Program-made: the position numbers and the translations under genes
Notes under the pieces: generated by a model
Seen by the model: the letters and a program-made list of their open reading frames with translations, nothing else
Told to the model about the DNA's origin: nothing
The model's database searches: none
Shown: one piece after another, positions 1-38,446 of the stretch
Layout of the letters: every line of letters starts with the position of its first letter
How positions within the stretch are numbered: the first letter of the stretch is position 1
NCBI GenBank assembly: GCA_902611845.1
Contig: CACMAX010000001.1
Location: 209,445 to 273,444 of the forward strand
Length of the DNA: 64,000 bases
Direction of reading: 5' to 3'
Source: an uncultured Pelagibacteraceae bacterium
GTDB taxonomy: Bacteria > Pseudomonadota > Alphaproteobacteria > Pelagibacterales > Pelagibacteraceae

Positions 1-2250
1 GACTTCAACATTCATACCTATTTCTGAATGACCTACATCAATTCTACACAATGCAATATTTTTATTCAAAGTAGGAGACAGACATCCACTTGTAACAACG
101 CCAACCTGGGATCTTCCAATATGAACGCAATCACCGTGATTAGCTTTTTCTTTGCCTACAAGTTCTAATCCAACTAATTTCTTTTGTGGATTTTCTTTTC
201 TCTTTATTAATGCTTCTTTCCCAATGAAATCTGCTGTTTTTGTTTTTAAAGGAACCGTAAATCCAACACCAGCTTCAAACGGGTCAACTTGGCCATCAAA
301 TTCATTACCAAATAATATTAGACCAGCTTCAATTCTTAATAAATCTAATGCTCCAAAACCAGCAGGTATTAATCCTTCATCTTTACCAGCTTCCACAAGC
401 ACATCCCAAACTGCTGGTGCATCAGAAGGGTGACACCATATTTCATATCCTAACTCACCTGTATATCCTGTTCTAGAAACCATTAATGGAATTCCGCTAA
501 GCTCTTTTACTCTGCAGATTGTAAACCTAAACCATTGTAATTCTGAAATAGAAGGTTGTGTTGGTGGAGTAAAAATAAACTTTTCTAAAATTTTTCTACT
601 ATTTGGCCCTTGTAGAGAAATATTATTTATTTGATCAGTAGAGTTTTTAACTAAAACATTAAATTTTTTCTTTTTTGCCTGTTCTTTTAACCATTCACCT
701 GCATATTCATCACCACATACCCATCTAAATCCATGATCACTCATTTTTAACAATGTTCCATCATCAAACATAGAACCATTTTCATAACACATCGAAGAAT
801 AAACAATTTGTCCAACTGACAATTTTTTAACATTTCTAGTTAAAGTATAGTCCATCAATTCTTCTGCATCTGGACCTAATATTTCAAATTTTCTTAAAGA
901 AGATAAATCAATTAAAACTGCTTTTTCTCTACACGCTGTATATTCATTTATTACCCCGTGTTTAGTGTAATCATTGGGCAACCAATATCCTCTAGCATCA
1001 ACAAAGTTTCTTGTTAATTTAGAAGTTCTTTCATGAAATCCTGTATTTTTTGTCAGTTTTAATTCTGAGTCTGGTTTCATTCTAAATGCAAAAGATTTTG
1101 TAAATTCTCTTTTTTTTTCATAAGTTCTAACAAAAATATCTGTAGGGTTCCATGAATTACATGGATCTATATCACTTGGACAGGCTGATGTTCCGCAGGT
1201 TAAATCTTTTAAAGCTCTTAATATTACATAATCTCCAGGTCTAGCAAATGACTCATCAGAAAGTACAGTATTCAAACCTCCTGCCGAAGTATTAAAAAAT
1301 AAATTTATAGCGTGCCATCCTTTTTGTCTATTAACCCCAAAATTTTCCATAGCACCACTTAAGTTATCTGAGCAATTTGGATGCCCAAAATAACCCGCAT
1401 CTTCGTAATACTTTGATGTACAAGCAAGATTAAAAGTGTCATGTCTACCAACGGTATCTCTTATTACCTCTACTAAAGGTTCATGATCTGTGTCAAAAAA
1501 TTTTGAATATAATCCCGGCCCTGGAAAAGTATTACCCATAAAGGTCCTGGTTGTTTGCCAATCTAAACCTTTCTCTACACCTTTACCTAATTTAGCTGTA
1601 TCGAAAGCAACAAAATCTGAACATTGTCTACCAGTTGGACAAATTATTTGAATATAATCTCCTTCTTTAACCTCAAAAGAAATCGCTGATTGTTTTGCAA
1701 TATTTTTTTCGTCTAGAGGATCAAAAATTGGATCTGGAATTATTCTATGTTCTTTATAATCAACAATATTATTTCTTTTAATAAATAAAGTTAGTTCAGT
1801 AGGAGGATTTTGTTCATGAACTAACATATCATTGCCAGGCGCAGCAAAAATACAATAACATTTATCTTTTGAGCTTATTTTAATTTTTTCTCCTGGTGGA
1901 GTGTCTTTATCAAAAAGGATTGAAGATTTAGACTTTGCAATTTTAAGATTTCTTTTTTCTAATTGACGTAATGCAATTTTTGAACTTTCTTCATTTCTAT
2001 TTAAAATTTTAATTATGTCATTTTCTGATTTAGAAGATTTTAAATTTAAAATCGATGGATCTGAATTTCCATCAGAATTAAAAACAACTATTTCGCAAAT
2101 TTGATTTCCTTCATTATTAATAATTTCAATTTCATCATCTGGAAAAATCTGAACTCCTGTAAGTCCACCACCATTAATTACGTATCTTTCAACCCCAGGT
2201 GGCAAAACATTTAATCCAGGTTCATTTATTCTTAAATTTTCTTCTAACAT
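1..2250 (-). CDS. tdm: Trimethylamine N-oxide demethylase Tdm (DUF1989 + GcvT-like domains); 3' end runs off the window
   Basis: Not in the ORF track because there is no stop inside the window. Hand translation from the ATG at 2250 gives MLEENLRINEPGLNVLPPGVERY..., the DUF1989 motifs DTVGRHDTFNLACTSKYYEDAGYFGHPNCSDN and SACPSDIDPCN, then GcvT-like TGYTGELGYE. It is divergent from a TmoX-like binding protein. Confidence 0.88.
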   Translation of the reverse strand, partial: MLEENLRINEPGLNVLPPGVERYVINGGGLTGVQIFPDDEIEIINNEGNQICEIVVFNSDGNSDPSILNLKSSKSENDIIKILNRNEESSKIALRQLEKRNLKIAKSKSSILFDKDTPPGEKIKISSKDKCYCIFAAPGNDMLVHEQNPPTELTLFIKRNNIVDYKEHRIIPDPIFDPLDEKNIAKQSAISFEVKEGDYIQIICPTGRQCSDFVAFDTAKLGKGVEKGLDWQTTRTFMGNTFPGPGLYSKFFDTDHEPLVEVIRDTVGRHDTFNLACTSKYYEDAGYFGHPNCSDNLSGAMENFGVNRQKGWHAINLFFNTSAGGLNTVLSDESFARPGDYVILRALKDLTCGTSACPSDIDPCNSWNPTDIFVRTYEKKREFTKSFAFRMKPDSELKLTKNTGFHERTSKLTRNFVDARGYWLPNDYTKHGVINEYTACREKAVLIDLSSLRKFEILGPDAEELMDYTLTRNVKKLSVGQIVYSSMCYENGSMFDDGTLLKMSDHGFRWVCGDEYAGEWLKEQAKKKKFNVLVKNSTDQINNISLQGPNSRKILEKFIFTPPTQPSISELQWFRFTICRVKELSGIPLMVSRTGYTGELGYEIWCHPSDAPAVWDVLVEAGKDEGLIPAGFGALDLLRIEAGLILFGNEFDGQVDPFEAGVGFTVPLKTKTADFIGKEALIKRKENPQKKLVGLELVGKEKANHGDCVHIGRSQVGVVTSGCLSPTLNKNIALCRIDVGHSEIGMNVEV

Positions 2251-2254
2251 TTTA

Positions 2255-2313
2255 AATCAATGATTACTTATGTTTGAGAATAAATCAGTACTGATTAATT
2301 GTATATATAAATT
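2255..2313. promoter_or_regulatory. Palindromic candidate operators in the tdm/tmoX divergent promoter
   Basis: Perfect 14-bp palindrome AATCAGTACTGATT (2283-2296), AATCA-A-TGATT (2255-2265) and near-palindrome TTAGTACCAA (2304-2313). Confidence 0.45.
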
Positions 2314-2391
2314 TTAGTACCAACTTCTGTTGACTGTAAGATTAAATTTAAGGATAATTAAACACTTAATATATTAAGAGAGGAGAAATAA

Positions 2392-3336
2392 ATGAAGAAA
2401 CTTTTATCAATAATTTCTGCTTTTTTGATTACATTTGCTCTAAGTTTTACAGGTGCGAATGCAGATAAAAGCGGAGTTGTTAAAATCCCAACACACAATT
2501 GGTCAAGTCAATTAGTTGGAGCTGAAGTTGTTGGTGAATTGCTAAAAATGGTAGGTGAGAAAGTAGAGTATATTAATATGGACTCACAAGCAGTATACCA
2601 AGCAATGGCAGACGGTGATATTGATCTAGTTCATGAAATTTGGGAAGGTGCGTTTGGAGCATCTTATGAAAAAGCAAAAGCTGGTGGTGGAATTGAAGAA
2701 ATTCTTACTCACGATGCTGTAACTAGAGAGGACTGGTGGTATCCAAACCATGTTGAAAAACTTTGTCCTGGTCTACCAGATTGGAAAGCTCTAAATAAAT
2801 GTGCAGATCTTTTTGCAAGAGCAGACTCTGGAGGTAAGGGAGTGTTTATCGGTGGTCCTGTTGATTGGTTAAAACATGATGCTGAAAAAGTTGAGGCTCT
2901 AGGAATGAACTTCATGGTGAAAAATGCAGGTTCTGCAGATGCAATTTGGGCTGAATTAGATGCAGGTGTAGCGCAAGGAAAAGCTGTAGTTGTTTTTAAC
3001 TGGTCACCAAATTTCATCGGTGCAAAATATCCAGGTAAGTTTGTTGAGTTTCCTAAACATGATCCAGCTTGTACAAAGGATCCTTCATGGGGAATCAATA
3101 AAACTGCACTTTATGATTGTGGAAACCCAGCAAGTGGTTATTTAAAATTAGCAGTCAATGCTGATTTCAAAAAAAATCATCCTGCGGGATATAAGTTGTT
3201 GAAACAGATGAATTTTTCTGGTCCAGACATTGACAAAATGGCTAACTACAAGGACACGGATGGTTTAGAAGTATCAGCAGCTGCTCAAAAATGGTTAGAT
3301 GATCACAAATCTAAATGGAGCAATTGGATTAAATAA
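2392..3336 (+). CDS. tmoX: TMAO/betaine-type ABC transporter substrate-binding protein (TmoX-like, OpuAC family)
   Basis: Signal peptide, motifs HNWSSQ, HEIWE, REDWWYP and CPGLPDWKALN, strong SD (AGGAG), and position next to tdm. Confidence 0.85.
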   Translation: MKKLLSIISAFLITFALSFTGANADKSGVVKIPTHNWSSQLVGAEVVGELLKMVGEKVEYINMDSQAVYQAMADGDIDLVHEIWEGAFGASYEKAKAGGGIEEILTHDAVTREDWWYPNHVEKLCPGLPDWKALNKCADLFARADSGGKGVFIGGPVDWLKHDAEKVEALGMNFMVKNAGSADAIWAELDAGVAQGKAVVVFNWSPNFIGAKYPGKFVEFPKHDPACTKDPSWGINKTALYDCGNPASGYLKLAVNADFKKNHPAGYKLLKQMNFSGPDIDKMANYKDTDGLEVSAAAQKWLDDHKSKWSNWIK

Positions 3337-3352
3337 TTTTTAGTCTATTTAT

Positions 3353-3393
3353 AAACGAACCGACATAATCTTAAGTCGGTTCGTTTTTTTTTT
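3353..3393 (+). terminator. Intrinsic terminator/stabilising hairpin after tmoX
   Basis: Stem AAACGAACCGAC-(10 nt)-GTCGGTTCGTTT followed by a long T run. Confidence 0.8.
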
Positions 3394-3426
3394 ATTTTAT
3401 GTTAAGCTCTCTTAAATTTTTTTATT

Positions 3427-4455
3427 ATGAATGATCAAATCAAAATTTCATGTTCAAATATTTGGAAATTATATGGAGAAAATCCAGAAAAGTTTTTAAA
3501 AGAAAATAATAATAATCCATCAACCGAACAACTAAAATCAAATAAATATATACCTGCGGTAAGAGATGCATCTATCGATGTAAAAACTGGAGAAATATTG
3601 GTTATTATGGGATTGAGTGGATCTGGTAAGTCAACATTATTAAGATGTATGTCTAAACTTATTCAACCAACTGATGGTCAAGTTTTTTTTGAGGGTAAAG
3701 ATTTATTAAAAGCTAGCGATAAAGAGTTAATCGAAATAAGAAGACATAAAATGGGAATGGTATTTCAGCATTTTGCTTTATTACCTCACAGAACAGTTTT
3801 ACAAAATGTTGCATTTCCTTTAGAGGTGCAAGGAATAGAGCCTATTAAAAGAGAAGATAGAGCAAAAGAGGTCATTAAATTAGTTGGTCTTGAGGGTAGA
3901 GAAAAATATTATCCTAGAGAACTTTCAGGAGGTCAACAACAAAGAGTTGGACTAGCAAGGTCTTTAGCGGTTGAACCAGATGTTTGGTTTTTAGATGAAC
4001 CTTTTTCAGCTTTAGATCCATTGATTAGAAAAGAGATGCAAAACGAGTTTTTGAGACTTCAAAATATGCTTAAAAAGACAATTGTTTTTATAACCCATGA
4101 TTTTGATGAAGCTATACGATTGGCAGATAGAATAGCAATAATGTATGAAGGGTTAATAGTCCAAGTAGGCACTCCTGAAGAATTAATCACGAAACCAGCT
4201 ACTGATTATGTTGCAGAATTTACAAAAGATATTCCTAGATCTAAGTTATTAAATGCTGAAAGTGTTATGAATAATGAGGATAAAAAACTCTATGATAATA
4301 CTGTTAACTGTAAAGAAAAAATTGAAAAAATCGCATCAAAAGTTTTAAAATCCGAAGGATCTTACTCTGTTATTGATGAAAATAAAAAAGTTATTGGTTC
4401 ATTAAGCAAAAAAGAAATAATCAAAGCTTTATTTGCCGAAGATAAGAATGAATAA
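3427..4455 (+). CDS. tmoW: Quaternary-amine ABC transporter ATP-binding subunit (ProV/OpuAA family)
   Basis: Walker A GLSGSGKS, signature LSGGQQQRVG, Walker B FLDEPFSALD. Confidence 0.85.
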   Translation: MNDQIKISCSNIWKLYGENPEKFLKENNNNPSTEQLKSNKYIPAVRDASIDVKTGEILVIMGLSGSGKSTLLRCMSKLIQPTDGQVFFEGKDLLKASDKELIEIRRHKMGMVFQHFALLPHRTVLQNVAFPLEVQGIEPIKREDRAKEVIKLVGLEGREKYYPRELSGGQQQRVGLARSLAVEPDVWFLDEPFSALDPLIRKEMQNEFLRLQNMLKKTIVFITHDFDEAIRLADRIAIMYEGLIVQVGTPEELITKPATDYVAEFTKDIPRSKLLNAESVMNNEDKKLYDNTVNCKEKIEKIASKVLKSEGSYSVIDENKKVIGSLSKKEIIKALFAEDKNE

Positions 4456-6460
4456 AATTAAAACCATTTTTAAAGGAAAATTTTTATTTATTTTTGGACC
4501 ATTCTTTTTGTTATGGTTGCTTCGTTATATTGTTCCTAATTATACGATTTCATCTAAAACACCACATTGGGCTTATATACCTCCAAAAAGTTGCTTGGGA
4601 GGATGCGGATCAATAGATGGATTTATACCTTTTGTAGATTGGACAAATGCATTAATTCAATTTCTGAGAAAGTATGAAATTTTCGGTTTGTTTACTTTTA
4701 GAGATTTCACAAGAGGTATAGCGAACTACGTCGATAAATTTTTAGATTTTACAGAAGCAGTCTTGCACAAAGGTTTTCCAAGCTACGAAATAGGACCTTT
4801 GCCTTGGATATTTATAATAACTCTTACAGTGATTTTAGGTTTTTATTTGAGAGGTTGGAGATTGGCATTGTTGGGAGGAACATGTTTTGCGTACTTAATA
4901 TTATTTAGTAAACGGGGAATATGGGAACTATCAATGAAATCTTTAGCAGCTATTTCTGTCTCTGCACCTTTGGCTGCATTAATAGGATTGTGTTTGGGTA
5001 TACTTGCGGTCAAGAGAAAAAAATTTGCAAACTTTCTATGGCCAATGTTAAATATTTTACAATCTTTACCTCATTTTTCTTATTTAATTCTGGTTGTTAT
5101 ATTTGTTGGAATAGGGACTAAAGCTGGAGTTATTGCAACCGTAATATTTGCATTTCCACCAATGGCTAGATTAACTATTTTAGGATTACAAAATATATCA
5201 CAAGAAATAAAAGAAGCTGGTGTGATGGCTGGTTGCACAAAGTGGCAAATGTTATTTAAAGTTGAAATTCCGGCAGCTAGATCTCCAATTATGCTGGGAA
5301 TAAATCAAGTTATAATGCAATGTCTTGCAATGATAGTTATAGCAGCATTTATTGGACAACCTGGTTTAGGTCATGACTTGTTAATTAGATTACAAGGCTT
5401 AAGGCTAGGTGAGGCTTTTGAAATTGGTGTTGCAGTTGTTTTGATCGCAATTACACTTGATAGGTATAGTCAAGCTTTAGCATTAAAAGAACCAGAGCGA
5501 AGAGAGGGAAATTTTGTAAAGAGAAATCCATATTTGTGTGCAACTTTTTTTGCAATTATAATTTGCTCTATCTTAGTTTTTCTTTTTCCATTTTTTAATG
5601 AATATCCAAAGGAGTTAACAGTTTCAGCATCTGTATATTTAGATAATGCCATTAAATCATTTACAAGATCTTTGTTTGTACCGTTAGGAATATTTAGAGA
5701 TTGGATGTTAATATATTTTTTGATGCCTCTTAAAGCTGTATTTCAATCTATGCCATGGACTGGAGTAATTTTATTTGTCGGAGCAATTGGGTGGAAGCTT
5801 GGTAAAATGAGACTGGCATTAACAGTTATGTTATTCGTATTTTTTATAGCATCATCTGGTTATTGGGTAAGAGCAATGATTACTTTATATATGGTATTTG
5901 CATCATTAGTAATATGTGCACTTATTGGAATTCCTTTGGGGATATGGGCATCAAAGAAAGAGAGCAGAACAAAGTTAGTTTTAAATATTTGTGATATTTT
6001 TCAAACATTTCCATCATTTATTTATCTACTTCCAGCAATAATGCTATTTCAAATAAGTGATGTTTCAGCAATATTTGCAATAGTTATATATTCCTCAATA
6101 CCAATGATAAGATATACTGTTTTTGGATTAAGAAATGTTCCACAACAAATTATAGAGGCATCTATAACCTCTGGATGTACAGAAAGACAATTATTATGGA
6201 AAGTAAAAATGCCTTTAGCCTTTCCAGAAATTATACTAGGTGCAAATCAAACATTAATGTTTGCTTTATTTATGGTAATGATAGCTGGATTTATTGGAAC
6301 TGTTGATTTGTCGCAAGAAATATTTAGGGCATTGTCTTTTAGTGACGGTGGCAAAGGTTTAATAATAGGATTATGTGTTGCATTTATAGGTTTGACTGCA
6401 GATAGATTGTTAGTTGAATGGTCAAATCAAATGAAGAAAAAATTAGGATTTATCAACTAG
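4448..6460 (+). CDS. tmoV: Quaternary-amine ABC transporter permease with two fused ProW-type modules
   Basis: Two permease repeats with EAA-like loops (IKEAGVMAGCTKWQML; IIEASITSGCTERQLL). The start is placed at ATG 4448, overlapping the upstream stop. Confidence 0.82.
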   Translation: MNKIKTIFKGKFLFIFGPFFLLWLLRYIVPNYTISSKTPHWAYIPPKSCLGGCGSIDGFIPFVDWTNALIQFLRKYEIFGLFTFRDFTRGIANYVDKFLDFTEAVLHKGFPSYEIGPLPWIFIITLTVILGFYLRGWRLALLGGTCFAYLILFSKRGIWELSMKSLAAISVSAPLAALIGLCLGILAVKRKKFANFLWPMLNILQSLPHFSYLILVVIFVGIGTKAGVIATVIFAFPPMARLTILGLQNISQEIKEAGVMAGCTKWQMLFKVEIPAARSPIMLGINQVIMQCLAMIVIAAFIGQPGLGHDLLIRLQGLRLGEAFEIGVAVVLIAITLDRYSQALALKEPERREGNFVKRNPYLCATFFAIIICSILVFLFPFFNEYPKELTVSASVYLDNAIKSFTRSLFVPLGIFRDWMLIYFLMPLKAVFQSMPWTGVILFVGAIGWKLGKMRLALTVMLFVFFIASSGYWVRAMITLYMVFASLVICALIGIPLGIWASKKESRTKLVLNICDIFQTFPSFIYLLPAIMLFQISDVSAIFAIVIYSSIPMIRYTVFGLRNVPQQIIEASITSGCTERQLLWKVKMPLAFPEIILGANQTLMFALFMVMIAGFIGTVDLSQEIFRALSFSDGGKGLIIGLCVAFIGLTADRLLVEWSNQMKKKLGFIN

Positions 6461-7419
6461 TGAAAGAAATATTAATAATAGGTGGAGGGGCAATGGGATC
6501 AGCTTTTACTTTTCCATGTATTGATAATAAAAACAAAGTAATAATAACAGAGCCATATAATAAAGTTTTTATTAAAAATTTATCTTCAAATAATAAATAT
6601 CATTCAAGTTTGAAAAAAAATTTACCTAGTAAGTTAAAGTATAAAAAATATTCAACAAACTTACTAAAAAAAAAATATGATTTAGTTGTTATTGCTTTAA
6701 GTTTATCAGGAATAAAATTTATAAGTGAAGAATTCAAACAATCAAAAATCAAAAGTCCAGTTCTAATTCTTACTAAAGGCTTAAAGTATGATAGAAAAAA
6801 GCAAAAAATTTATACTATTTCTGAAGATATAAAAAAAAATAATAAAAATATAAACATATCTGTCTTAAAAGGACCTTGTTTAGCAAAAGAACTTTCTAAT
6901 AAAAAACAAACAAGTGTTGTTGTTGCTAATAAAAATATAAAAACTGCAAAGAATATATGCAAAATGATTTCTACAAAATATTACGTAACAGAGACTTCAA
7001 AAGATATTATTGGAATAGAAATTTGTTCAGCAATAAAAAATATTTATTCTATGATAATTGGAGCTGGAGATAGTTTAAATATGTCATCAAGTTTATTCAA
7101 AAAATCTATTAATGAGATGATATATATTACTAAATATTTTAAAGGAAAAATTGAAACCGCTCTTGGATTAGCTGGAGTTGGAGATCTATACGTCAGTGCT
7201 GCAGGAGGTAGAAATAGTAAAATGGGAGGGTACCTGGGGCAAGGCTATACATTTAATAATGCTAAAAGAAAATTTATGCCAAATGAAACTGTAGAGGGAG
7301 AGCAACTTGCAAGAGAAATTGCTCCATTTATACTAAAAAAAATACAACAAAAAAAAATCCCTTTGATGACAAAATTAATTAAATCTATAATTAACAATAA
7401 AAAATTAATATTAAATTAA
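6460..7419 (+). CDS. gpsA: NAD(P)H-dependent glycerol-3-phosphate dehydrogenase family protein (divergent GpsA)
   Basis: Motifs IIGGGAMGS, TKGL, GPCLAKE, AIKNIY, GVGDL, GRNSKMG and VEG. The GTG start at 6460 overlaps the tmoV stop. Confidence 0.72.
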   Translation: MKEILIIGGGAMGSAFTFPCIDNKNKVIITEPYNKVFIKNLSSNNKYHSSLKKNLPSKLKYKKYSTNLLKKKYDLVVIALSLSGIKFISEEFKQSKIKSPVLILTKGLKYDRKKQKIYTISEDIKKNNKNINISVLKGPCLAKELSNKKQTSVVVANKNIKTAKNICKMISTKYYVTETSKDIIGIEICSAIKNIYSMIIGAGDSLNMSSSLFKKSINEMIYITKYFKGKIETALGLAGVGDLYVSAAGGRNSKMGGYLGQGYTFNNAKRKFMPNETVEGEQLAREIAPFILKKIQQKKIPLMTKLIKSIINNKKLILN

Positions 7420-7421
7420 AA

Positions 7422-8507
7422 ATGGCGAGTATTAAAATAGATAAAGTAAATAAGTATTTTGGAAGTACACATGTTATCAAAGATGTTTCTCTTGATATAA
7501 AGAGCGAGTCTTTTACTGTTCTAGTAGGACCAAGTGGTTGTGGTAAATCTACAATTTTAAGAATGATTGCTGGTTTAGAAGAAATTAATTCTGGCACAAT
7601 ATCTATTGATGATAAAGTTGTTAACGATTTACCACCTAAAGAAAGAAATATTGCAATGGTATTTCAATCTTATGCCCTTTACCCGCATATGACAGTATTT
7701 GACAATATGGCTTTTGGTTTAAAGATTGAAAAAAAATCGAAAGAAGAAATAGAGCAAAGAGTAATGGAAGCTGCTAAAATTCTACAAATTGAGGAGTATC
7801 TTGAGAGAAAACCCAAACAATTATCTGGAGGACAACGTCAAAGAGTAGCCATAGGTAGAGCTATTACAAGAAAACCGAAAGTTTTTTTATTCGATGAACC
7901 ATTATCTAACTTAGATGCGGCTTTAAGAGTACAAATGAGAGTAGAGTTGGCAAAACTACATGATCAACTTAATGCAACAATGATTTACGTAACTCATGAT
8001 CAGACTGAAGCCATGACACTCGCAAATGATATTGTTGTATTGGATCAAGGTATAGTTTCACAAAAGGGATCACCAATGAATTTATATAATAACCCAGATA
8101 ATTTATTTGTTGGAGGTTTTATCGGGTCTCCAAAAATGAATTTTATAGATAGTAAAGTTTTAAGTAAAAGCTCAAAGAGTTCTGAAGTAGATATAATGGG
8201 GACTGGAAAGTTAAATGTACCAAAAATTTCTGAAAATACTCAAGAAGGGGATAGTATAAAAATTGGTATAAGACCAGAGCACTTGATATTAAATGCAAAA
8301 ACAGACTCATTATGGGAAAGTAAAGTGTTCGTTGTAGAAAAATTAGGGTCAGGAACATATTTATATTTAGAGAAAGAGGGAGACCCTCTTGTTGTACAAA
8401 CTGATGGGGACACGAATATTAAAGTAGGTGATACTGTTAAAATAGGTTTTGATCCATTTAGATGCCATTTATTTGATAATAAAGGTATTTCTTTTAAAAA
8501 TTCCTAA
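7422..8507 (+). CDS. Carbohydrate ABC transporter ATP-binding protein (MalK/UgpC family)
   Basis: GPSGCGKS, VFQSYALYPHM, LSGGQRQRVAIGRA, DEPLSNLDA and a C-terminal TOBE-like region. Confidence 0.93.
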   Translation: MASIKIDKVNKYFGSTHVIKDVSLDIKSESFTVLVGPSGCGKSTILRMIAGLEEINSGTISIDDKVVNDLPPKERNIAMVFQSYALYPHMTVFDNMAFGLKIEKKSKEEIEQRVMEAAKILQIEEYLERKPKQLSGGQRQRVAIGRAITRKPKVFLFDEPLSNLDAALRVQMRVELAKLHDQLNATMIYVTHDQTEAMTLANDIVVLDQGIVSQKGSPMNLYNNPDNLFVGGFIGSPKMNFIDSKVLSKSSKSSEVDIMGTGKLNVPKISENTQEGDSIKIGIRPEHLILNAKTDSLWESKVFVVEKLGSGTYLYLEKEGDPLVVQTDGDTNIKVGDTVKIGFDPFRCHLFDNKGISFKNS

Positions 8508-33652: not shown

Positions 33653-34870
33653 ATGGAAAATAAATTATCTCAAATTACAGAATTATTCTCCAAAACAAGA
33701 CAACAAACTCTATCCCTGTGCGAGAACTTAGAGGCTGAGGATATGGTCATACAGCCCAGTAAAAATGTCAGTCCTCTTAAGTGGCATCTTGGTCACACCA
33801 CATGGTTCTTCGAAAAATTCATCTTGTCAGAATTGGATGAAAGTTACAAACCTTTTAACAAAGATTACAATTACATATTTAATTCGTATTATAATTCTGT
33901 GGGTGAGTACAATCCTCGAAATAAGAGAGGTTCACTAAATAGACCCATCTTAAAAGATGTTGTAAAATATAGACACTATGTAACTGAAAATATTATTGAT
34001 TTTTTAAAAAGGACAAAAAATAACAGGACATCATTTTTAGTTGAACTAGGTTCAAATCACGAACAACAGCATCAAGAATTAATGTTAATGGATATTAAAA
34101 ATATTTTTTACAATAATCCATTGATGCCGACTTATAATTCTAACGATGATAAACCAACTGCTAAAGAAGAAAATGAATTGACATTAGAAACTAGTAAAAA
34201 ATTTAAATATGGAAACAACGAGGATATTTTTTGTTACGATAACGAATTACCAGTATCAGAAATACAATTAGATCCTTTTAAAATATATTCATTTGTTACC
34301 AATGGAGAGTGGAAAGAATTCATTAATGATGGAGGATATAAAAACCATGAGTATTGGTTATCTGATGGATGGGATTTTGTAAATAATAACAAATTACAAA
34401 AACCAATGTATTGGATAGATAATAACAATTATTTTACATTAAATGGTGTAAAAAAAATTGATAATGAAAAGCCAGTTTCTCATATAAGTTTCTATGAAGC
34501 AGATGCATTTGCAAGATACAAAAACAAAAGATTACCAACTGAATTTGAACTAGAGTATTTTTTAAAACAATCTAAGAAAAAAGGTAATTTTTTAGAAAAT
34601 AAAATTTTCCGTGAAGTGGAAGAAAAAGCAGACGATGTTTATGGAAATTTATGGGCTTGGACAAGTAGTAATTACACACCTTACAAAAAATACAAACCTT
34701 ATGAAGGAAATCTAGGAGAATATAATAATAAGTTCATGTGCAATCAGTTTGTCTTAAAAGGCGGCTCACATTCTACGTCTATTAATCATGTCAGAGCATC
34801 TTATAGAAATTTCTTTTACCCAAGTGATACTTGGCAGTTTTGTGGCGTCAGACTAGCTGATGACATCTAG
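33653..34870 (+). CDS. egtB: Ergothioneine sulfoxide synthase EgtB (DinB_2 + FGE-sulfatase domains)
   Basis: SPLKWHLGHTTWFFE, FNSYY, HEQQHQEL (3-His Fe triad), YNNKFM, RASYRNFF. Confidence 0.92.
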   Translation: MENKLSQITELFSKTRQQTLSLCENLEAEDMVIQPSKNVSPLKWHLGHTTWFFEKFILSELDESYKPFNKDYNYIFNSYYNSVGEYNPRNKRGSLNRPILKDVVKYRHYVTENIIDFLKRTKNNRTSFLVELGSNHEQQHQELMLMDIKNIFYNNPLMPTYNSNDDKPTAKEENELTLETSKKFKYGNNEDIFCYDNELPVSEIQLDPFKIYSFVTNGEWKEFINDGGYKNHEYWLSDGWDFVNNNKLQKPMYWIDNNNYFTLNGVKKIDNEKPVSHISFYEADAFARYKNKRLPTEFELEYFLKQSKKKGNFLENKIFREVEEKADDVYGNLWAWTSSNYTPYKKYKPYEGNLGEYNNKFMCNQFVLKGGSHSTSINHVRASYRNFFYPSDTWQFCGVRLADDI

Positions 34871-35832
34871 TGACTAATTTAAAATTAATAAACATAAACA
34901 ATCAAATTCAAGATGATAAAAAATTAATCTTACAAGGATTATTAAATAAAAAACAAAAATATTTACTACCTAAATATTTTTATGATGAAAAAGGTTCGAA
35001 GTTATTTAATAAAATTACAAACCTTAAAGAATATTACCCAACAAACAAAGAGTTAGAAATACTAGGTAGTTCACAAAAAGAGATAAGAAAGAAATTACCA
35101 ATTAATTCAACAATTGTAGAATTTGGTAGTGGCTCAAATAAAAAAATTAATAAATTTATAAATTCATTAAGTGAACCCAAAGAATATATTCCTATAGATA
35201 TTAGTAAGGAATATTTGTTTGAAAATGCATCGATAATTGCAAAAAAATTCTCAGATTTAAAGGTAACAGCAATATGTGCTGACTTTAGTCAGACCGATAG
35301 ATTAAATAAAATTTTAAAAAATAAAAAAAAAATAGTCAGTTTTTTTCCAGGATCGACCATAGGAAATTATTTACCCAAAAATGCAAAAAAAATATTAAAA
35401 AATTTTTCAAAAATCATAGGTAAAAATTCTTATTTAGTAATTGGGGTAGATTTAATAAAAAATAAGAAGACCCTTGAAAATGCTTACAATGATAAATCGG
35501 GAGTTACAGCAAAATTTAATAAAAATATATTAAATGTAGTAAACAAAATTTGTAATTCAAATTTTCAAACAAAAAATTTTGATCATAAAGCATTTTACAA
35601 TTTAAAAAAAAACAGAATTGAAATGCATCTTATTTCAAAGAAAAATTTCACGTTAAAAATTAATAAAAAGAATATTAAATTTACTAAAGATGAAACCATT
35701 CATACTGAAAATTCTCACAAATATTCAAAAAATAACTTTGTTAAATTAGTTAATAAATCTGGATTTAAAGTCTTAAAATATTTTGCAGATAAAAAAAATT
35801 ATTTTGGAGTTTTTTTGTTAAAAGTGAAGTAA
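34870..35832 (+). CDS. egtD: L-histidine N-alpha-trimethyltransferase EgtD
   Basis: PKYFYDEKGSKLF, EYYPT, EFGSGS, PIDIS, FPGSTIGN, AYND, HTENSHK; the GTG start overlaps the egtB stop. Confidence 0.92.
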   Translation: MTNLKLININNQIQDDKKLILQGLLNKKQKYLLPKYFYDEKGSKLFNKITNLKEYYPTNKELEILGSSQKEIRKKLPINSTIVEFGSGSNKKINKFINSLSEPKEYIPIDISKEYLFENASIIAKKFSDLKVTAICADFSQTDRLNKILKNKKKIVSFFPGSTIGNYLPKNAKKILKNFSKIIGKNSYLVIGVDLIKNKKTLENAYNDKSGVTAKFNKNILNVVNKICNSNFQTKNFDHKAFYNLKKNRIEMHLISKKNFTLKINKKNIKFTKDETIHTENSHKYSKNNFVKLVNKSGFKVLKYFADKKNYFGVFLLKVK

Positions 35833-35840
35833 GTTTTATT

Positions 35841-36470
35841 ATGGCTCAAAAAGACGTAGGTAACAAAATTCCCATTTATAAGTTAAAAGACACCGATGAA
35901 GTGATGAAATATTACGATGAATGGGGAGATGGTAATAAATATGATAAGGATATGGTCGATTGGAATTATACAGGACCAAAAGAAACAACAAAAGTATTTT
36001 CAGAATTCCAAAAAAACAAAGACGCAAAAATTTATGATGCTGGTTGTGGAACTGGATTGGTGGGTGTTGAATTAAAAAAATATGGTTTTAAAAATTTTCA
36101 TGGGGCAGATCTTTCAAAAAAGTTATTAGAATTAGTACCAAATGATCTTTATGAAAAGCTTGAACAAGTAGACTTGAATAAACCCATTAATAAAAAAGAT
36201 GACGAATATGACTCTGTTATGTGTGTTGGTACATTTACTTTTGGACATGTAAAGCCACCAGCTTTGGAGGAATTTATCAGGATTACAAAGAATAATGGAT
36301 TTATCTGTTTTACTATTAATGAGGGAATACATGAAGAATATGGTTTTGATAAAAAAATTGAGCAACTTAAAGAGCAAAATAAATGGAAAGAAATAAAATT
36401 TTTTAAATCAGATTACATTGCGAGCAAAGACGTAAATGCTTGGTTAGGGTTATATCAAGTGATAAAATAA
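35841..36470 (+). CDS. Class I SAM-dependent methyltransferase, substrate unknown
   Basis: Motif I IYDAGCGTGLVG, GADLS, CVGTFTFGHV. Confidence 0.88.
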   Translation: MAQKDVGNKIPIYKLKDTDEVMKYYDEWGDGNKYDKDMVDWNYTGPKETTKVFSEFQKNKDAKIYDAGCGTGLVGVELKKYGFKNFHGADLSKKLLELVPNDLYEKLEQVDLNKPINKKDDEYDSVMCVGTFTFGHVKPPALEEFIRITKNNGFICFTINEGIHEEYGFDKKIEQLKEQNKWKEIKFFKSDYIASKDVNAWLGLYQVIK

Positions 36471-36473
36471 ACC

Positions 36474-37649
36474 ATGTCAGAAATTTACAATATTATAGAT
36501 AAACAAAAGTTAGATATTGTATCTAAACCAATTAGTGAAGCTCATGGTTTACCAAATGAATGCTACATCAGTAAAGAATATACTTTAATTGAAAGAAAAA
36601 AATTATTTGAAGATAAGTGGATCGTCATTGGAGTTGGAAGTTCTATTCCAGATGAAGGTGATGTGAAACCAATTGATTTACTTGGAATACCCTTACTTAT
36701 TGTTAGAACAAAAAATAAAGAAATAAAAGTTTTTCATAATATTTGTAGTCATAGAGGAGTTAAATTAGTTAAAGAAGCTGGCAAAATTAGAAATGTTATG
36801 AGGTGCTCATATCATTCATGGTCATATGACTTAGAAGGAAAATTAGTAGCTACACCTCATATAGGAGGCATGAATATTCATCAAACACCTGAATTTGATA
36901 AATCAAAAAGTAATTTAAAAGAGATAAGATCATATATTTGGTTAGATCTAATTATGATTAACATTAACAACAATGAAATTTCATTTGAGGATTATATCAG
37001 TCCTTTAAGTCAAAGATGGGAAAAATTTTGGCCCTTAAAAGATAGAGAATTAATTTATCATGCAAATGATTATGGTTATTTTAAATTAGATGCAAAATGT
37101 AATTGGAAATTTGCAATTGAAAATTATTGTGAAAGCTATCATTTGCCTTGGGTTCATCCAGGATTAAATTCTTATTCAAAGTTAGAAGATCACTATCATA
37201 TTCAAGGTCTTCCAAATCGTTTCGCCGGACAAGGAACAGTGGTCTACAATCCAAGGTTTGAAGGAAAAGAAAAATTTCCTTGCTTTCCTAACTGGCCAAA
37301 AGATAAGGAAAATATAGCTGAGTATGTAGCACTATTTCCAAATGTTATGTTAGGAATTCACAAAGATCATTATTATGCTTATTGGTTAGAGCCAATCAAT
37401 CATGAGCTTACAGTAGAACATATGGAAATTTATTATGTTGGAGATGAAGCGGCAACTTCAACAAAGTATAAAACTTTAAGACAAAAAAATCACAAACAAT
37501 GGGAAGACATTCAAAAAGAAGATGTAGATATAATTCAAAGTATGCAAATAGGCAGAAACTCACCAGCTTATAATGGTGGTAATTTTTCTCCAAAGATGGA
37601 CAATCCAACACATCATTTTCATAAGTGGGTTGCTGGTAATTTAATTTAA
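36474..37649 (+). CDS. Rieske non-heme iron oxygenase alpha subunit (choline monooxygenase/betaine demethylase-like)
   Basis: Rieske motifs CSHRG and CSYHSW; mononuclear site NWKFAIENYCESYHLPWVHP and EDVD. Confidence 0.9.
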   Translation: MSEIYNIIDKQKLDIVSKPISEAHGLPNECYISKEYTLIERKKLFEDKWIVIGVGSSIPDEGDVKPIDLLGIPLLIVRTKNKEIKVFHNICSHRGVKLVKEAGKIRNVMRCSYHSWSYDLEGKLVATPHIGGMNIHQTPEFDKSKSNLKEIRSYIWLDLIMININNNEISFEDYISPLSQRWEKFWPLKDRELIYHANDYGYFKLDAKCNWKFAIENYCESYHLPWVHPGLNSYSKLEDHYHIQGLPNRFAGQGTVVYNPRFEGKEKFPCFPNWPKDKENIAEYVALFPNVMLGIHKDHYYAYWLEPINHELTVEHMEIYYVGDEAATSTKYKTLRQKNHKQWEDIQKEDVDIIQSMQIGRNSPAYNGGNFSPKMDNPTHHFHKWVAGNLI

Positions 37650-37664
37650 AGTTAAAACCTAAAA

Positions 37665-38075
37665 ATGAAAATTATACTAATCATGGGACTTCCAGGCGCA
37701 GGAAAAACTACATTAGCTGATGAACTTGCCCCATTGTTAAATGCAAAAAGATTAAATGCAGATGAAGTAAGAAAAGCTGCAAACGATTGGGATTTTTCAG
37801 AAGAGGGAAGAACAAGACAAGCAAAAAGAATGGCTTACTCTGCATTACAATTAAAAAATGAAGGAAATTATGTGATTGCAGATTTTATTTGTCCAACTCC
37901 AAAGGCAAGAAGTTTATTTCCTGCAGATTATATAGTCTGGGTAGACACAATAAAAGAAGGTAGATTTGATGATACTAATAAAATGTTTGTTAAACCAGAA
38001 AAATATGATTTTCATGTTACCACACAAGATGCTAAGTCTTGGGCACCAAAGATTTTAAAGGAGATAAAAAAATGA
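37665..38075 (+). CDS. Small P-loop kinase, adenylyl-sulfate kinase (CysC)-like
   Basis: GLPGAGKTT, LNADEVRK, WDFSEEGRTRQAKRM, IADFICP; only 136 aa. Confidence 0.7.
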   Translation: MKIILIMGLPGAGKTTLADELAPLLNAKRLNADEVRKAANDWDFSEEGRTRQAKRMAYSALQLKNEGNYVIADFICPTPKARSLFPADYIVWVDTIKEGRFDDTNKMFVKPEKYDFHVTTQDAKSWAPKILKEIKK

Positions 38076-38446
38076 CGTACCAATGGGACAATAAAAAACC
38101 AACAGCTCAAATGTTAGGAAGATGGCAACCGTTTCATGATGGTCACTATACTCTATTTAAGGAAATTATAAAAAAAACAGGACAAGTATGTATTCAAATT
38201 AGAGATGTACAAGGTGTTGATGATAACCCATTTGATTTTGAAACTGTCAAAAAAAATATTGAGGAAAAACTTAATCCAGAGTTTGAGGGTAGGTTCAAAA
38301 TTATGCTTGTCCCTAATATTACAAATATTTGTTATGGAAGAGGTGTTGGATATAAAATTGAAGAAATAGTTTTACCTGAAGAAATTCAAAAAATTTCAGC
38401 AACTAAAATTAGAGCTAAGATGAGAGAAGAAGGTAAATTAAAATAA
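38072..38446 (+). CDS. Small HxGH-motif nucleotidyltransferase (cytidylyltransferase-like superfamily)
   Basis: GRWQPFHDGH, DNPF, ISATKIR; ATGA overlap with the kinase and AGGAG SD. Confidence 0.78.
   Translation: MTYQWDNKKPTAQMLGRWQPFHDGHYTLFKEIIKKTGQVCIQIRDVQGVDDNPFDFETVKKNIEEKLNPEFEGRFKIMLVPNITNICYGRGVGYKIEEIVLPEEIQKISATKIRAKMREEGKLK

What the first reader, a model, noticed from the sequence alone, without database searches (positions are those of the whole stretch)
37665..38446. Miniature kinase + nucleotidyltransferase pair: split PAPS synthase or split NadR?
Two coupled (ATGA) very small proteins: a CysC-like P-loop kinase (136 aa) and an HxGH nucleotidyltransferase (124 aa, GRWQPFHDGH...ISATKIR). 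Established: ATP sulfurylase + APS kinase and NadR (NMN adenylyltransferase + kinase) are both HxGH plus P-loop combinations. The kinase motifs look CysC-like while the transferase motif looks NadM-like. No sulfotransferase or sulfate-reduction gene is nearby. Inference: an uncharacterised activate-then-phosphorylate module. I recall similar compact genes in marine phages, so phage origin is possible.
Basis: partly seen in the sequence, partly recalled or inferred. Interest (0 to 1): 0.6.

Follow-up and report, generated by a model that had tools for sequence, protein, structure and literature searches.

The report
Miniature sulfate-activating gene pair in SAR11
Two tiny overlapping genes in this SAR11 (Pelagibacter-type) genome most likely form a stripped-down, undescribed enzyme pair that makes or breaks "activated sulfate" (APS and PAPS), the ATP-sulfurylase step that papers say these very abundant ocean bacteria lack.

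Summary
A 136-aa APS-kinase-like gene (37665-38075) overlaps by ATGA a 124-aa HxGH nucleotidyltransferase (NT) gene (38072-38446).

- The two proteins are halves of one protein that is fused in phages, in other SAR11 and in soil Alphaproteobacteria.
- The NT descends from NadM-type NMNAT but has lost about 25 residues that NMNAT has.
- Elsewhere the NT is fused to full-length CysC. In one Rhizobium it is fused to a sulfotransferase plus the kinase.
- Sulfotransferases are its only recurrent neighbours in soil bacteria.
- It takes the place of canonical ATP sulfurylase in a kinase-X-pyruvate-kinase-like cassette.
- Among 151 SAR11-order genomes it never co-occurs with cysD (122 against 7, overlap 0).
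- It tracks aprA (117 genomes have both) and lies beside aprMBA in two lineages. In one of these it stands without the kinase.

This genome has aprMBA, a sulfotransferase, a CysQ-like gene, and its own CoaD and NadD. It has no sat and no cysDN.

Best reading (about 0.65): the NT is a new, minimal sulfate adenylyltransferase working with a trimmed APS kinase. No enzyme assay exists.

This scan has noted the same pair on at least ten other genomes, with the same reading.

The parts
37665..38075 (+). Trimmed APS-kinase-like P-loop kinase, 136 aa. It has the P-loop GLPGAGKT, LNAD in place of LDGD, DFSEEGRTRQ in place of FSxxDRxEN, and FICP in place of FISP. The lid segment is shortened.
   Evidence: Searches give the ORF, PF01583 at 41.5 bits and the alignment to APS kinases 2yvu and 3cr7; in the model of a fused relative the best PDB matches are APS kinases; family-invariant residues are G8 G13 K14 R36 F44 P111; nearly invariant are S45 R49 Q52 F74 C76 P77 R82.
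38072..38446 (+). Minimal HxGH (HIGH-superfamily) nucleotidyltransferase, 124 aa; candidate sulfate adenylyltransferase. Motifs are GRWQPFHDGH, VR(D) after strand 2, NPF, VPNI, YGR(D/G)VGY and ISATKIR.
   Evidence: invariant G16 R17 Q19 H22 H25 G89 R90 G93 R114; model pLDDT 93.5. Z 10.7 to PPAT, 10.0 and 9.9 to NadM and MJ0541, 8.8 to Thermus ATP sulfurylase; the family profile matches NMNAT at E 9e-13, with a deletion.
38066..38075 (+). Junction: a run of seven A (38066-38072) followed by the ATGA stop/start overlap. The NT frame is -1 relative to the kinase frame. One more A would give the in-frame fusion seen in relatives such as P0133.

Best explanation
The two genes are the separated halves of a compact sulfate-activation enzyme. 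The 124-aa NT is a reversible sulfate adenylyltransferase (ATP + sulfate <-> APS + PPi) that evolved from a NadM-type NMN adenylyltransferase by losing a segment of about 25 residues. The 136-aa protein is an APS 3'-kinase with a shortened lid (APS + ATP -> PAPS + ADP). The ATGA overlap couples their translation. In this SAR11 genome, which has no sat and no cysDN, the pair connects to the APS made from sulfite by AprMBA. It supplies PAPS to the genome's sulfotransferase, and PAP is recycled by the CysQ-like phosphatase. Running in reverse, the NT can also turn APS into sulfate plus ATP. Shown here: domain homologies, fusions, neighbourhoods and phyletic patterns. Inferred: the substrates, the direction of flux, and sulfate binding by R44 and R90.
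For: 1. One unit. Both proteins map to a single phage family, phrog_10255 (kinase = positions 1-109, NT = 126-228). They are fused at about 245-260 aa in phages, in other SAR11 and in soil Alphaproteobacteria.

2. The kinase resembles APS kinase in sequence and fold. The residues aligned to the LDGDxxR arginine, FS, DR and FISP blocks are kept.

3. The NT family is fused to full-length, high-scoring CysC in both orders: P0355 (212 bits) and P0334 (163 bits). In Rhizobium sp. BK376 a single 555-aa frame holds Sulfotransfer_2 + kinase + NT.

4. In 80 soil-bacterial loci the context varies, and sulfotransferases are the only recurrent neighbour. TPR-Sulfotransfer_3 proteins occur in 6 loci. In four of them they are directly adjacent (L034, L050, L068, L085); in L048 one gene lies between, and L058 was not resolved. 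Sulfotransfer_3 is directly adjacent in Chelatococcus caeni (L080) and in L100. In two Bradyrhizobium species a C39-ABC exporter, HlyD and two sulfotransferases precede the gene.

5. Cassette swap between two SAR11 relatives. One (G014) has TauE <> CysC-NT-PK. The other (G039) has mini-kinase - canonical Sat (PF01747, 147 bits) - PK - sulfotransferase - TauE. The PK proteins are 30% identical and the TauE proteins 33%.

6. Phyletic exclusion. In 151 genomes of the order the NT is in 122 and cysD (E<=1e-30) in 7, with no genome holding both. All four of those seven tested for PF01583 carry a 613-639-aa CysN/C next to cysD.

7. Link to APS reductase. 117 genomes have both aprA and the NT, 5 the NT only, 6 aprA only, 23 neither (counted). 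In sister family f2 the same 13 genomes have both, and in all 13 the NT match lies within about 0.4-0.7 kb of aprA (coordinates; gene order read in L104 and L106). In genus g8 the order is NT-aprM-aprB-aprA on one strand with gaps of 49-63 nt. None of the five g8 genomes checked has a credible match to the kinase profile (best 35 bits, partial, in an unrelated-length frame).

8. This genome has no PF01747, no cysD and no second PF01583. It does have aprA with aprM and aprB beside it, a PF00685 sulfotransferase between mnmE and rho, and a CysQ-like gene (196 bits to TIGR01331, below its cut-off of 228.8).

9. Published work states that Pelagibacter has aprBA but lacks sat and cysDN, and tabulates a lone 'cysC' with the same strain distribution as aprA (PMC5069961).
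Against: There is no biochemical evidence for any member of the NT family. By sequence and fold the NT is closest to NadM/NMNAT and PPAT; ATP sulfurylase comes only fifth (Z 8.8 against 10.7), and PF01747 does not match. The YGR(D/G) motif may not be homologous to the GRD loop of Sat. In the window's own genus the slot just upstream of aprM holds a HIT-family gene. That gene could be the real APS-consuming enzyme there, which would leave the pair only the PAPS branch. In the first draw of relatives, four genomes of the genus (79-92% complete) have sulfotransferases but neither the pair nor any APS kinase. In phages the fused gene sits next to a NADAR gene, a family linked to NAD/ADP-ribose metabolism. 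Related genomes are not independent samples, so the phyletic patterns overstate the support.
Confidence: 0.65

Rival explanations
1. The pair handles APS, but the NT is not an ATP sulfurylase. It only consumes APS, for instance by transferring AMP to phosphate (an ADP-sulfurylase/APAT-like reaction, APS + Pi -> ADP + sulfate) or by hydrolysing APS. The kinase is a separate branch or a regulatory partner.
For: In genus g8 the NT stands alone at the head of aprMBA, with no credible match to the kinase profile. This fits an APS-removing role in sulfite oxidation. The sulfite-oxidising direction is the one proposed for SAR11 AprBA (PMC5069961; PMC5864207).
Against: Soil bacteria and the fusions to sulfotransferases need APS/PAPS to be made, and no apr gene was seen in the neighbourhoods inspected. 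The exclusion with cysDN, which makes APS, and the swap with Sat both point to the reversible sulfurylase reaction.
Confidence: 0.1
2. The module activates something other than sulfate and then 3'-phosphorylates it. The product would be a PAPS-like donor, as the CysC homologue Cj1415 does for cytidine diphosphoramidate in Campylobacter (from my own knowledge). Candidates are another oxyanion such as selenate, or a small phosphorylated or amidated molecule.
For: The kinase is divergent: it scores far below the NCBIfam CysC cut-offs (32 against 138.7 bits) and its lid is shortened. The NT pocket is uncharacterised. APS-kinase homologues with other substrates are known.
Against: Every informative association is with sulfate enzymes: three Pfam sulfotransferase families, Sat, CysC, CysDN exclusion, AprMBA and TauE.
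Confidence: 0.1
3. It is a NadR-like NAD salvage pair: a nicotinamide riboside kinase plus an NMN adenylyltransferase.
For: The NT's best sequence matches are NadM/NMNAT. NadR is an HxGH domain plus a P-loop kinase. Phage copies lie next to NADAR, which elsewhere neighbours NAD salvage genes (PMC9503650).
Against: Between the two blocks that match M. jannaschii NMNAT, the NT has 9 residues where NMNAT has about 34. The IGSAQ block reads VR(D). The NadR model scores 15 bits against a cut-off of 341, and the NadM models 23-27 bits against 127-181. The kinase is of the APS-kinase type, and in relatives it is a full CysC. The genome has NadD (129 bits, above cut-off).
Confidence: 0.04
4. It is a phage-derived nucleotide-modifying module for defence or counter-defence, resident in the chromosome.
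For: The fused form is a PHROG family present in several phage groups, next to NADAR and MazG genes. In soil bacteria its context is highly variable, as for mobile genes.
Against: It is near-core in the genus (100 of 107 genomes) at a syntenic site after the Rieske gene. It is linked to aprMBA and to sulfotransferases rather than to defence genes. No prophage genes surround it in the window.
Confidence: 0.04
5. It is a CoA-type pair: a phosphopantetheine adenylyltransferase plus a dephospho-CoA 3'-kinase. This is the name JGI gives the NT.
For: PPAT is the top structural neighbour (Z 10.7). JGI names several cluster members PPAT. Dephospho-CoA kinase also phosphorylates a 3'-OH.
Against: The genome has a true CoaD (TIGR01510, 154 bits against a cut-off of 103). 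TIGR01510 is not among the NT's NCBIfam matches; only an archaeal PPAT subfamily model appears, at 18.8 bits against 104. No CoA gene is associated with the pair anywhere.
Confidence: 0.02

Closest known systems
Bifunctional PAPS synthases and Sat-CysC fusions (human PAPSS1/2, PDB 1x6v; Aquifex aeolicus Sat/APS kinase, PDB 2gks)
   Same: They combine an HxxH-type adenylyltransferase with an APS kinase, fused or coupled, to give sulfate -> APS -> PAPS. Both domain orders occur here too. The kinase domains are homologous.
   Different: The transferase is 124 aa rather than about 350-400 aa and does not match PF01747. It descends from NadM-type NMNAT. The kinase lacks most of the lid. The whole unit is about 250 aa against about 550-620 aa.
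NadM / archaeal NMN adenylyltransferase (MJ0541, PDB 1f9a; M. thermautotrophicum, 1ej2; Francisella NadM, 2qjt)
   Same: These are the closest sequence relatives. The GRFQPFHxGH, NPF, GY(E/K)(V/I) and SxTxIR blocks are shared; the profile matches at E 9e-13 over NT residues 10-82, and Z is 9.9-10.0.
   Different: About 25 residues are missing between the VPNI block and the GY block. The IGSAQ block reads VR(D). The invariant YGR(D/G)VGY arginine is new. The family scores far below NMNAT model cut-offs and is never seen with NAD genes in the contexts inspected.
APS kinase CysC (PF01583, TIGR00455; PDB 2yvu, 1m7g)
   Same: The P-loop, the second Asp of LDGD, the Arg, Phe and Arg that align with the APS-binding blocks, and the FISP-like turn are shared. 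APS kinases are the top structural matches.
   Different: Only profile positions 4-90 of 152 match. The protein has 136 aa against about 175-200. TIGR00455 scores 32 bits against a cut-off of 138.7. LDGD reads LNAD and FISP reads FICP.
sat-aprMBA sulfite-oxidation operons of sulfur oxidisers (e.g. Allochromatium vinosum) and CysDN/CysNC
   Same: In genus g8 the NT occupies the position ahead of aprM-aprB-aprA. Across the order it alternates with cysD-cysNC.
   Different: It belongs to neither the Sat nor the CysD family. In the window's own genus the pair lies elsewhere on the chromosome, and a HIT-family gene holds the slot before aprM.

Membership tests
APS kinase (CysC; PF01583 / TIGR00455) | Score above the curated family cut-off over the whole domain | tested here: inconclusive
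   The Pfam cut-off is met (41.5 against 21.1 bits), but only for profile positions 4-90 of 152. The NCBIfam equivalog is not met (32.3 against 138.7 bits).
APS kinase (CysC; PF01583 / TIGR00455) | P-loop plus the LDGDxxR, FSxxDRxEN and FISP blocks that hold Mg-ATP and APS | tested here: met
   GLPGAGKT, LNADEVR, DFSEEGRTRQ and DFICP align to these blocks in 2yvu and 3cr7. R36 and F44 are invariant in the family, and R49 and Q52 nearly so. The first Asp of LDGD is Asn here.
APS kinase (CysC; PF01583 / TIGR00455) | Mobile lid segment after the fourth strand | tested here: not met
   The profile match ends at position 90 of 152. The alignment with the full-length CysC fusion P0334 shows the segment shortened.
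Sat-type ATP sulfurylase (PF01747) | Sequence match to the family model | tested here: not met
   PF01747 finds nothing in the whole genome. The NT hits only PF01467, weakly.
Sat-type ATP sulfurylase (PF01747) | HxxH motif, a later GRD loop and a C-terminal ISGTxxR-type helix on a Rossmann-like core | tested here: inconclusive
   HDGH, YGRG (YGRD in most relatives) and ISATKIR occur in that order. Fold Z is 8.8 to Thermus Sat 1v47 over 117 residues, but higher to PPAT and NMNAT. The equivalence of the GRD motifs rests on my recollection of the Sat motifs and was not checked in three dimensions.
Sat-type ATP sulfurylase (PF01747) | Catalyses ATP + sulfate <-> APS + PPi | not testable with these tools
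   Only genomic association is available.
NadM-type NMN adenylyltransferase (TIGR01527, NF002243) | Score above the curated cut-off | tested here: not met
   23.3 against 181.2 bits and 27.4 against 127 bits.
NadM-type NMN adenylyltransferase (TIGR01527, NF002243) | Segment between the third strand and the GYEV block, which to my recollection contacts the nicotinamide ring | tested here: not met
   NT 82-91 corresponds to MJ0541 75-109, so about 25 residues are absent.
NadR (TIGR01526) | NMNAT domain followed by a ribosylnicotinamide-kinase domain | tested here: not met
   15.3 against 341 bits. The domain order is reversed and the kinase is of the CysC type.
Phosphopantetheine adenylyltransferase (CoaD, TIGR01510) | Match to the equivalog model; the only such gene in the genome | tested here: not met
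   TIGR01510 is not among the NT's NCBIfam matches. The true CoaD lies on contig C3 (154 bits).

The most novel reading that the evidence does not exclude
The 124-aa protein founds a third, independent class of sulfate adenylyltransferase, beside Sat and CysDN. It was carved out of an NMN adenylyltransferase and is widespread in SAR11, soil Alphaproteobacteria and phages. In SAR11 it is the 'missing' ATP sulfurylase: it closes the AprBA sulfite-oxidation route (APS + PPi -> ATP + sulfate) and, with its kinase partner, lets cells that cannot assimilate sulfate still make PAPS for sulfation.
Probability: 0.55. Interest if true: 0.85.

Novelty: new variant of a known kind. Interest (0 to 1): 0.72.

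Why it matters
SAR11 is among the most abundant organisms in the sea, and its sulfur metabolism is a textbook oddity. It needs reduced sulfur and is described as having APS reductase but no ATP sulfurylase (PMC5069961). A hidden, very small sulfurylase would have several consequences.

- It would complete the sulfite-to-sulfate route and add a substrate-level ATP yield.
- It would explain the orphan "cysC" listed in SAR11 genomes.
- It would show that these cells can sulfate their own products.
- It would be a new origin of a central enzyme, from an NAD-biosynthesis ancestor. At about 250 aa it would also be by far the smallest PAPS-forming unit, which is useful for enzymatic sulfation.
- It would correct annotations: public sources name these proteins PPAT, NMNAT, "adenylylsulfate kinase" or "kinase".

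Tried and rejected
- Complex prediction of the window's kinase and NT, each with its alignment, gave no verdict (score 0.00). It counts neither for nor against binding.
Expression, co-transcription and slippage at the A-run could therefore not be examined.
- Foldseek on the NT model gave no match at E<=0.001. The fused model's matches were all to the kinase half.
- The search for related loci with the 40-row alignment failed for lack of a conserved stretch. A 12-row alignment worked.
- Contigs carrying P0355, P0334, P0290 and P0317 were too short to show context.
- The promoter scan was at chance level, 50 sites against 50.7 expected, so no transcription unit can be claimed.
- The mini-kinase of G039 that sits beside canonical Sat is only 24% identical to the window's kinase over 89 residues. 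It is an analogue, not an orthologue.
- The 132-aa gene ahead of aprM in this genome is not an NT relative (hhalign probability 0.1). It is a HIT protein.
- The proteins upstream of the pair in family f2 gave no useful PDB match.
- Literature searches found no paper describing this family or an alternative ATP sulfurylase. The library holds only open-licence papers, so this is weak evidence of novelty.

Full report
**What is there**

On the + strand a 136-aa ORF (37665-38075) is followed by a 124-aa ORF (38072-38446). The ATG of the second overlaps the TGA of the first, as ATGA.

The first protein matches the APS-kinase family: PF01583 at 41.5 bits, and archaeal APS kinase 2yvu at E 3.5e-8. 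The match covers only the first two thirds of the domain. The P-loop is kept, and the blocks that align with LDGDxxR, FSxxDRxEN and FISP read LNADEVR, DFSEEGRTRQ and DFICP.

The second protein has GRWQPFHDGH and ISATKIR. It only grazes PF01467 (20.4 bits), and its best named matches are NadM-type NMN adenylyltransferases, far below their cut-offs.

The window belongs to a 1.26-Mb SAR11-type genome that is 91.7% complete. The pair sits in a long run of same-strand genes between a Rieske oxygenase and an enoyl-CoA hydratase. The promoter scan is at chance level, so I claim no operon.

**The two genes are halves of one unit**

- Both map to one phage protein family, phrog_10255: the kinase to positions 1-109 and the NT to 126-228.
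- In Xylella, Stenotrophomonas and Xanthomonas phages and in one Clavibacter phage they form a single gene of about 245 aa.
- Fused forms of 252-260 aa, 80-93% identical in the NT part, occur in other SAR11. Fused forms are also the rule in soil Alphaproteobacteria.
- In the window's genus the split is the norm and has several junction sequences, so it is real.
- In this window the junction is a run of seven A followed by TGA. One more A would restore the fusion seen in P0133.

**What the NT is by descent**

- A profile of 40 family members matches archaeal and NadM NMNATs at E 9e-13 over NT residues 10-82, and again over residues 91-117.
- Between those two blocks the NT has 9 residues where M. 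jannaschii NMNAT has about 34.
- To my recollection, that NMNAT segment contacts the nicotinamide ring. Its absence fits a much smaller second substrate.
- Family-invariant residues are G16, R17, Q19, H22, H25, G89, R90, G93 and R114; R44, N52-P53 and P81-N82 are nearly invariant.
- The AlphaFold model is confident (pLDDT 93.5).
- Its structural neighbours are all HIGH-superfamily nucleotidyltransferases: PPAT Z 10.7, NadM 10.0, MJ0541 9.9 and Thermus ATP sulfurylase 8.8. Fold alone does not settle the substrate.
- The genome has its own CoaD and NadD, both above their cut-offs. The NT is therefore not needed for CoA or NAD synthesis.

**Evidence that the substrate is sulfate/APS**

1. *Fusions.* One cluster joins the NT to a full-length CysC (212 bits). 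Another joins a full CysC (163 bits) to the NT. In Rhizobium sp. BK376 one 555-aa open frame holds a Sulfotransfer_2 domain, the kinase and the NT.

2. *Neighbours in soil bacteria.* In 80 loci from soil bacteria the surroundings are otherwise unrelated, and the only recurrent neighbour is a sulfotransferase.
   - TPR-Sulfotransfer_3 proteins occur in six loci. They are directly adjacent in L034, L050, L068 and L085; in L048 one gene lies between.
   - Sulfotransfer_3 genes are directly adjacent in Chelatococcus caeni (L080) and in a Stellaceae genome (L100).
   - In two Bradyrhizobium species a C39-peptidase ABC exporter, a HlyD protein and two sulfotransferases precede the gene. To my recollection this layout resembles the RaxST-RaxA-RaxB system.

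3. *Cassette swap.* One SAR11 relative (G014) has TauE <> CysC-NT-pyruvate-kinase-like. Another (G039) has mini-kinase - canonical Sat - pyruvate-kinase-like - sulfotransferase - TauE. The flanking proteins are homologous: 30% and 33% identity.

4. *Exclusion with cysD.* In 151 genomes of the order (all at least 85% complete) the NT is in 122 and cysD in 7, and no genome has both. Four of those seven lie in the sister family, and all four carry a CysN/C fusion next to cysD.

5. *Link to APS reductase.* From I count 117 genomes with both the NT and aprA, 5 with the NT only, 6 with aprA only, and 23 with neither.
   - In the sister family f2 the same 13 of 20 genomes have both. In all 13 the NT match lies within about 0.4-0.7 kb of aprA. 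In the two loci I read, L104 and L106, the pair and the apr genes converge.
   - In genus g8 the order is NT-aprM-aprB-aprA on one strand with short gaps. None of the five g8 genomes checked has a credible match to the kinase profile.
   - An NT standing alone at the head of aprMBA is where sulfur oxidisers keep sat.

**The situation in this genome**

- Not found: sat, cysD, or a second APS kinase.
- Present: aprA on contig C6, with aprM and aprB beside it.
- Present: a PF00685 sulfotransferase between mnmE and rho.
- Present: a CysQ-like phosphatase, 196 bits to TIGR01331, below its cut-off of 228.8.
- Smith et al. 2016 (PMC5069961) state that Pelagibacter has aprBA but lacks sat and cysDNCHIJ. 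Their Table 3 nevertheless lists a "cysC" in exactly the strains that have aprA. That "cysC" is probably this kinase.
- Mehrshad et al. (PMC5864207) spell out that ATP gain from AprBA needs a second, APS-to-sulfate step.

**Most likely mechanism**

The NT catalyses ATP + sulfate <-> APS + PPi, and the kinase converts APS to PAPS.

In SAR11 the APS pool can also be fed from sulfite by AprBA. The pair can then drain APS to PAPS for sulfation, and the NT can drain it to sulfate plus ATP.

The homologies, fusions, neighbourhoods and distributions are shown. The chemistry, the direction of flux, the sulfate-binding role of R44 and R90, and any physical contact between the two proteins are inferred.

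**Reservations**

- No member of the family has been assayed.
- In the window's own genus the gene just before aprM is a HIT-family protein. HIT enzymes can, to my knowledge, break down APS. It may do that job here and leave the pair only the PAPS branch.
- Four genomes of the genus in the first draw (79-92% complete) have sulfotransferases but neither the pair nor any APS kinase. Missing sequence may explain this, since 100 of 107 better genomes carry the NT.
- Phage copies sit beside a NADAR gene. One phage has, two genes upstream, a protein with a sub-threshold sulfotransferase match. The role in phages is open.
- Related genomes share ancestry, so the counts are not independent tests.

**Comparison with what is known, and novelty**

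- The pair works like a PAPS synthase or Sat-CysC fusion, but its transferase is not a member of the Sat family, and by descent it belongs with NadM.
- The kinase is a trimmed CysC relative that fails the curated CysC thresholds.
- I found no paper describing the family. Public names for it are inconsistent: PPAT, NMNAT, adenylylsulfate kinase, kinase.
- I rate it a new variant of a known kind: known chemistry carried out by a new enzyme lineage and a new minimal architecture.

**Earlier notes from this scan**

I consulted the sequence and word look-ups only after reaching this reading. They show that the same pair has been flagged on at least ten other genomes. The follow-up agents reached the same conclusions, including the HIT-or-NT alternation before aprMBA and the exclusion with cysD-cysNC. 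These notes agree with my reading but are not independent evidence.

Noticed in passing
window 38064-38075: The kinase ends ATA AAA AAA TGA. A_AAA_AAA is a classic -1 slippery heptamer in the right frame, and a -1 shift there would read ATG ACG... and give exactly the fused protein found in relatives. The run is absent in the complete genome G013 (junction TAATG), so it is probably not required.
   Followed up: partly
own genome contig C6, L115:7570-7968 (outside the window): A 132-aa HIT-family protein (E 2.7e-14 to PDB 2eo4) lies directly upstream of aprM-aprB-aprA, in the slot that holds the mini nucleotidyltransferase in genus g8. It is a second candidate APS-consuming enzyme.
   Followed up: partly
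L115:11248-11598; L108:11243-11593; L104:5168-5518: A conserved 116-aa protein of unknown function follows aprA in three SAR11 lineages (70% identity between the two compared).
   Followed up: no
L019:6578-7561; L021:7981-9327; L112:545-1495: A pyruvate-kinase barrel-domain protein recurs next to kinase-NT or kinase-Sat cassettes in marine genomes. The protein in L019 is too short (328 aa) to hold the usual C-terminal domain. Its role in sulfate activation is unexplained.
   Followed up: partly
L092:6726-8393 (Rhizobium sp. BK376): A single 555-aa open frame combines a Sulfotransfer_2 domain, the trimmed APS kinase and the mini nucleotidyltransferase. L071 has a similar 563-aa protein with an unassigned N-terminal 300 residues.
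   Followed up: partly
L068 and L085 (Bradyrhizobium acaciae, B. uaiense), about 1-8400: The gene order is C39-peptidase ABC exporter, HlyD, two TPR-sulfotransferases, then the fused kinase-NT. The layout recalls the RaxST/RaxA/RaxB sulfated-peptide system.
   Followed up: partly
L001:4963-6732 (Xylella phage Sano gp33-gp35): The phage's fused kinase-NT is preceded by a NADAR-domain gene (92 bits) and, before that, by a 195-aa protein with a sub-threshold Sulfotransfer_4 match (20.7 bits against a cut-off of 22.8). A MazG gene and a gene annotated 'cysteine dioxygenase' lie upstream.
   Followed up: partly
L104:1363-4220; L108:6344-7561: In the sister family an ABC exporter and a HlyD-type protein lie directly upstream of the pair. 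In genus g8 a 405-aa gene of the same length as that HlyD-type protein, not itself scanned, precedes the lone NT. This may hint at export of a sulfated product.
   Followed up: no
G048:C1:283940-284289: In one complete genome of the genus the NT match is broken into two frames (73 and 90 aa). In G148 it carries an internal TAA. These may be occasional pseudogenes.
   Followed up: no
window 33653-37649 against L105 (G013): The egtB-egtD genes and the methyltransferase upstream of the Rieske gene are absent at the syntenic site of the complete genome G013, where the metF-aminomethyltransferase pair abuts the Rieske gene. Five other genes separate the NT from the enoyl-CoA hydratase there.
   Followed up: partly
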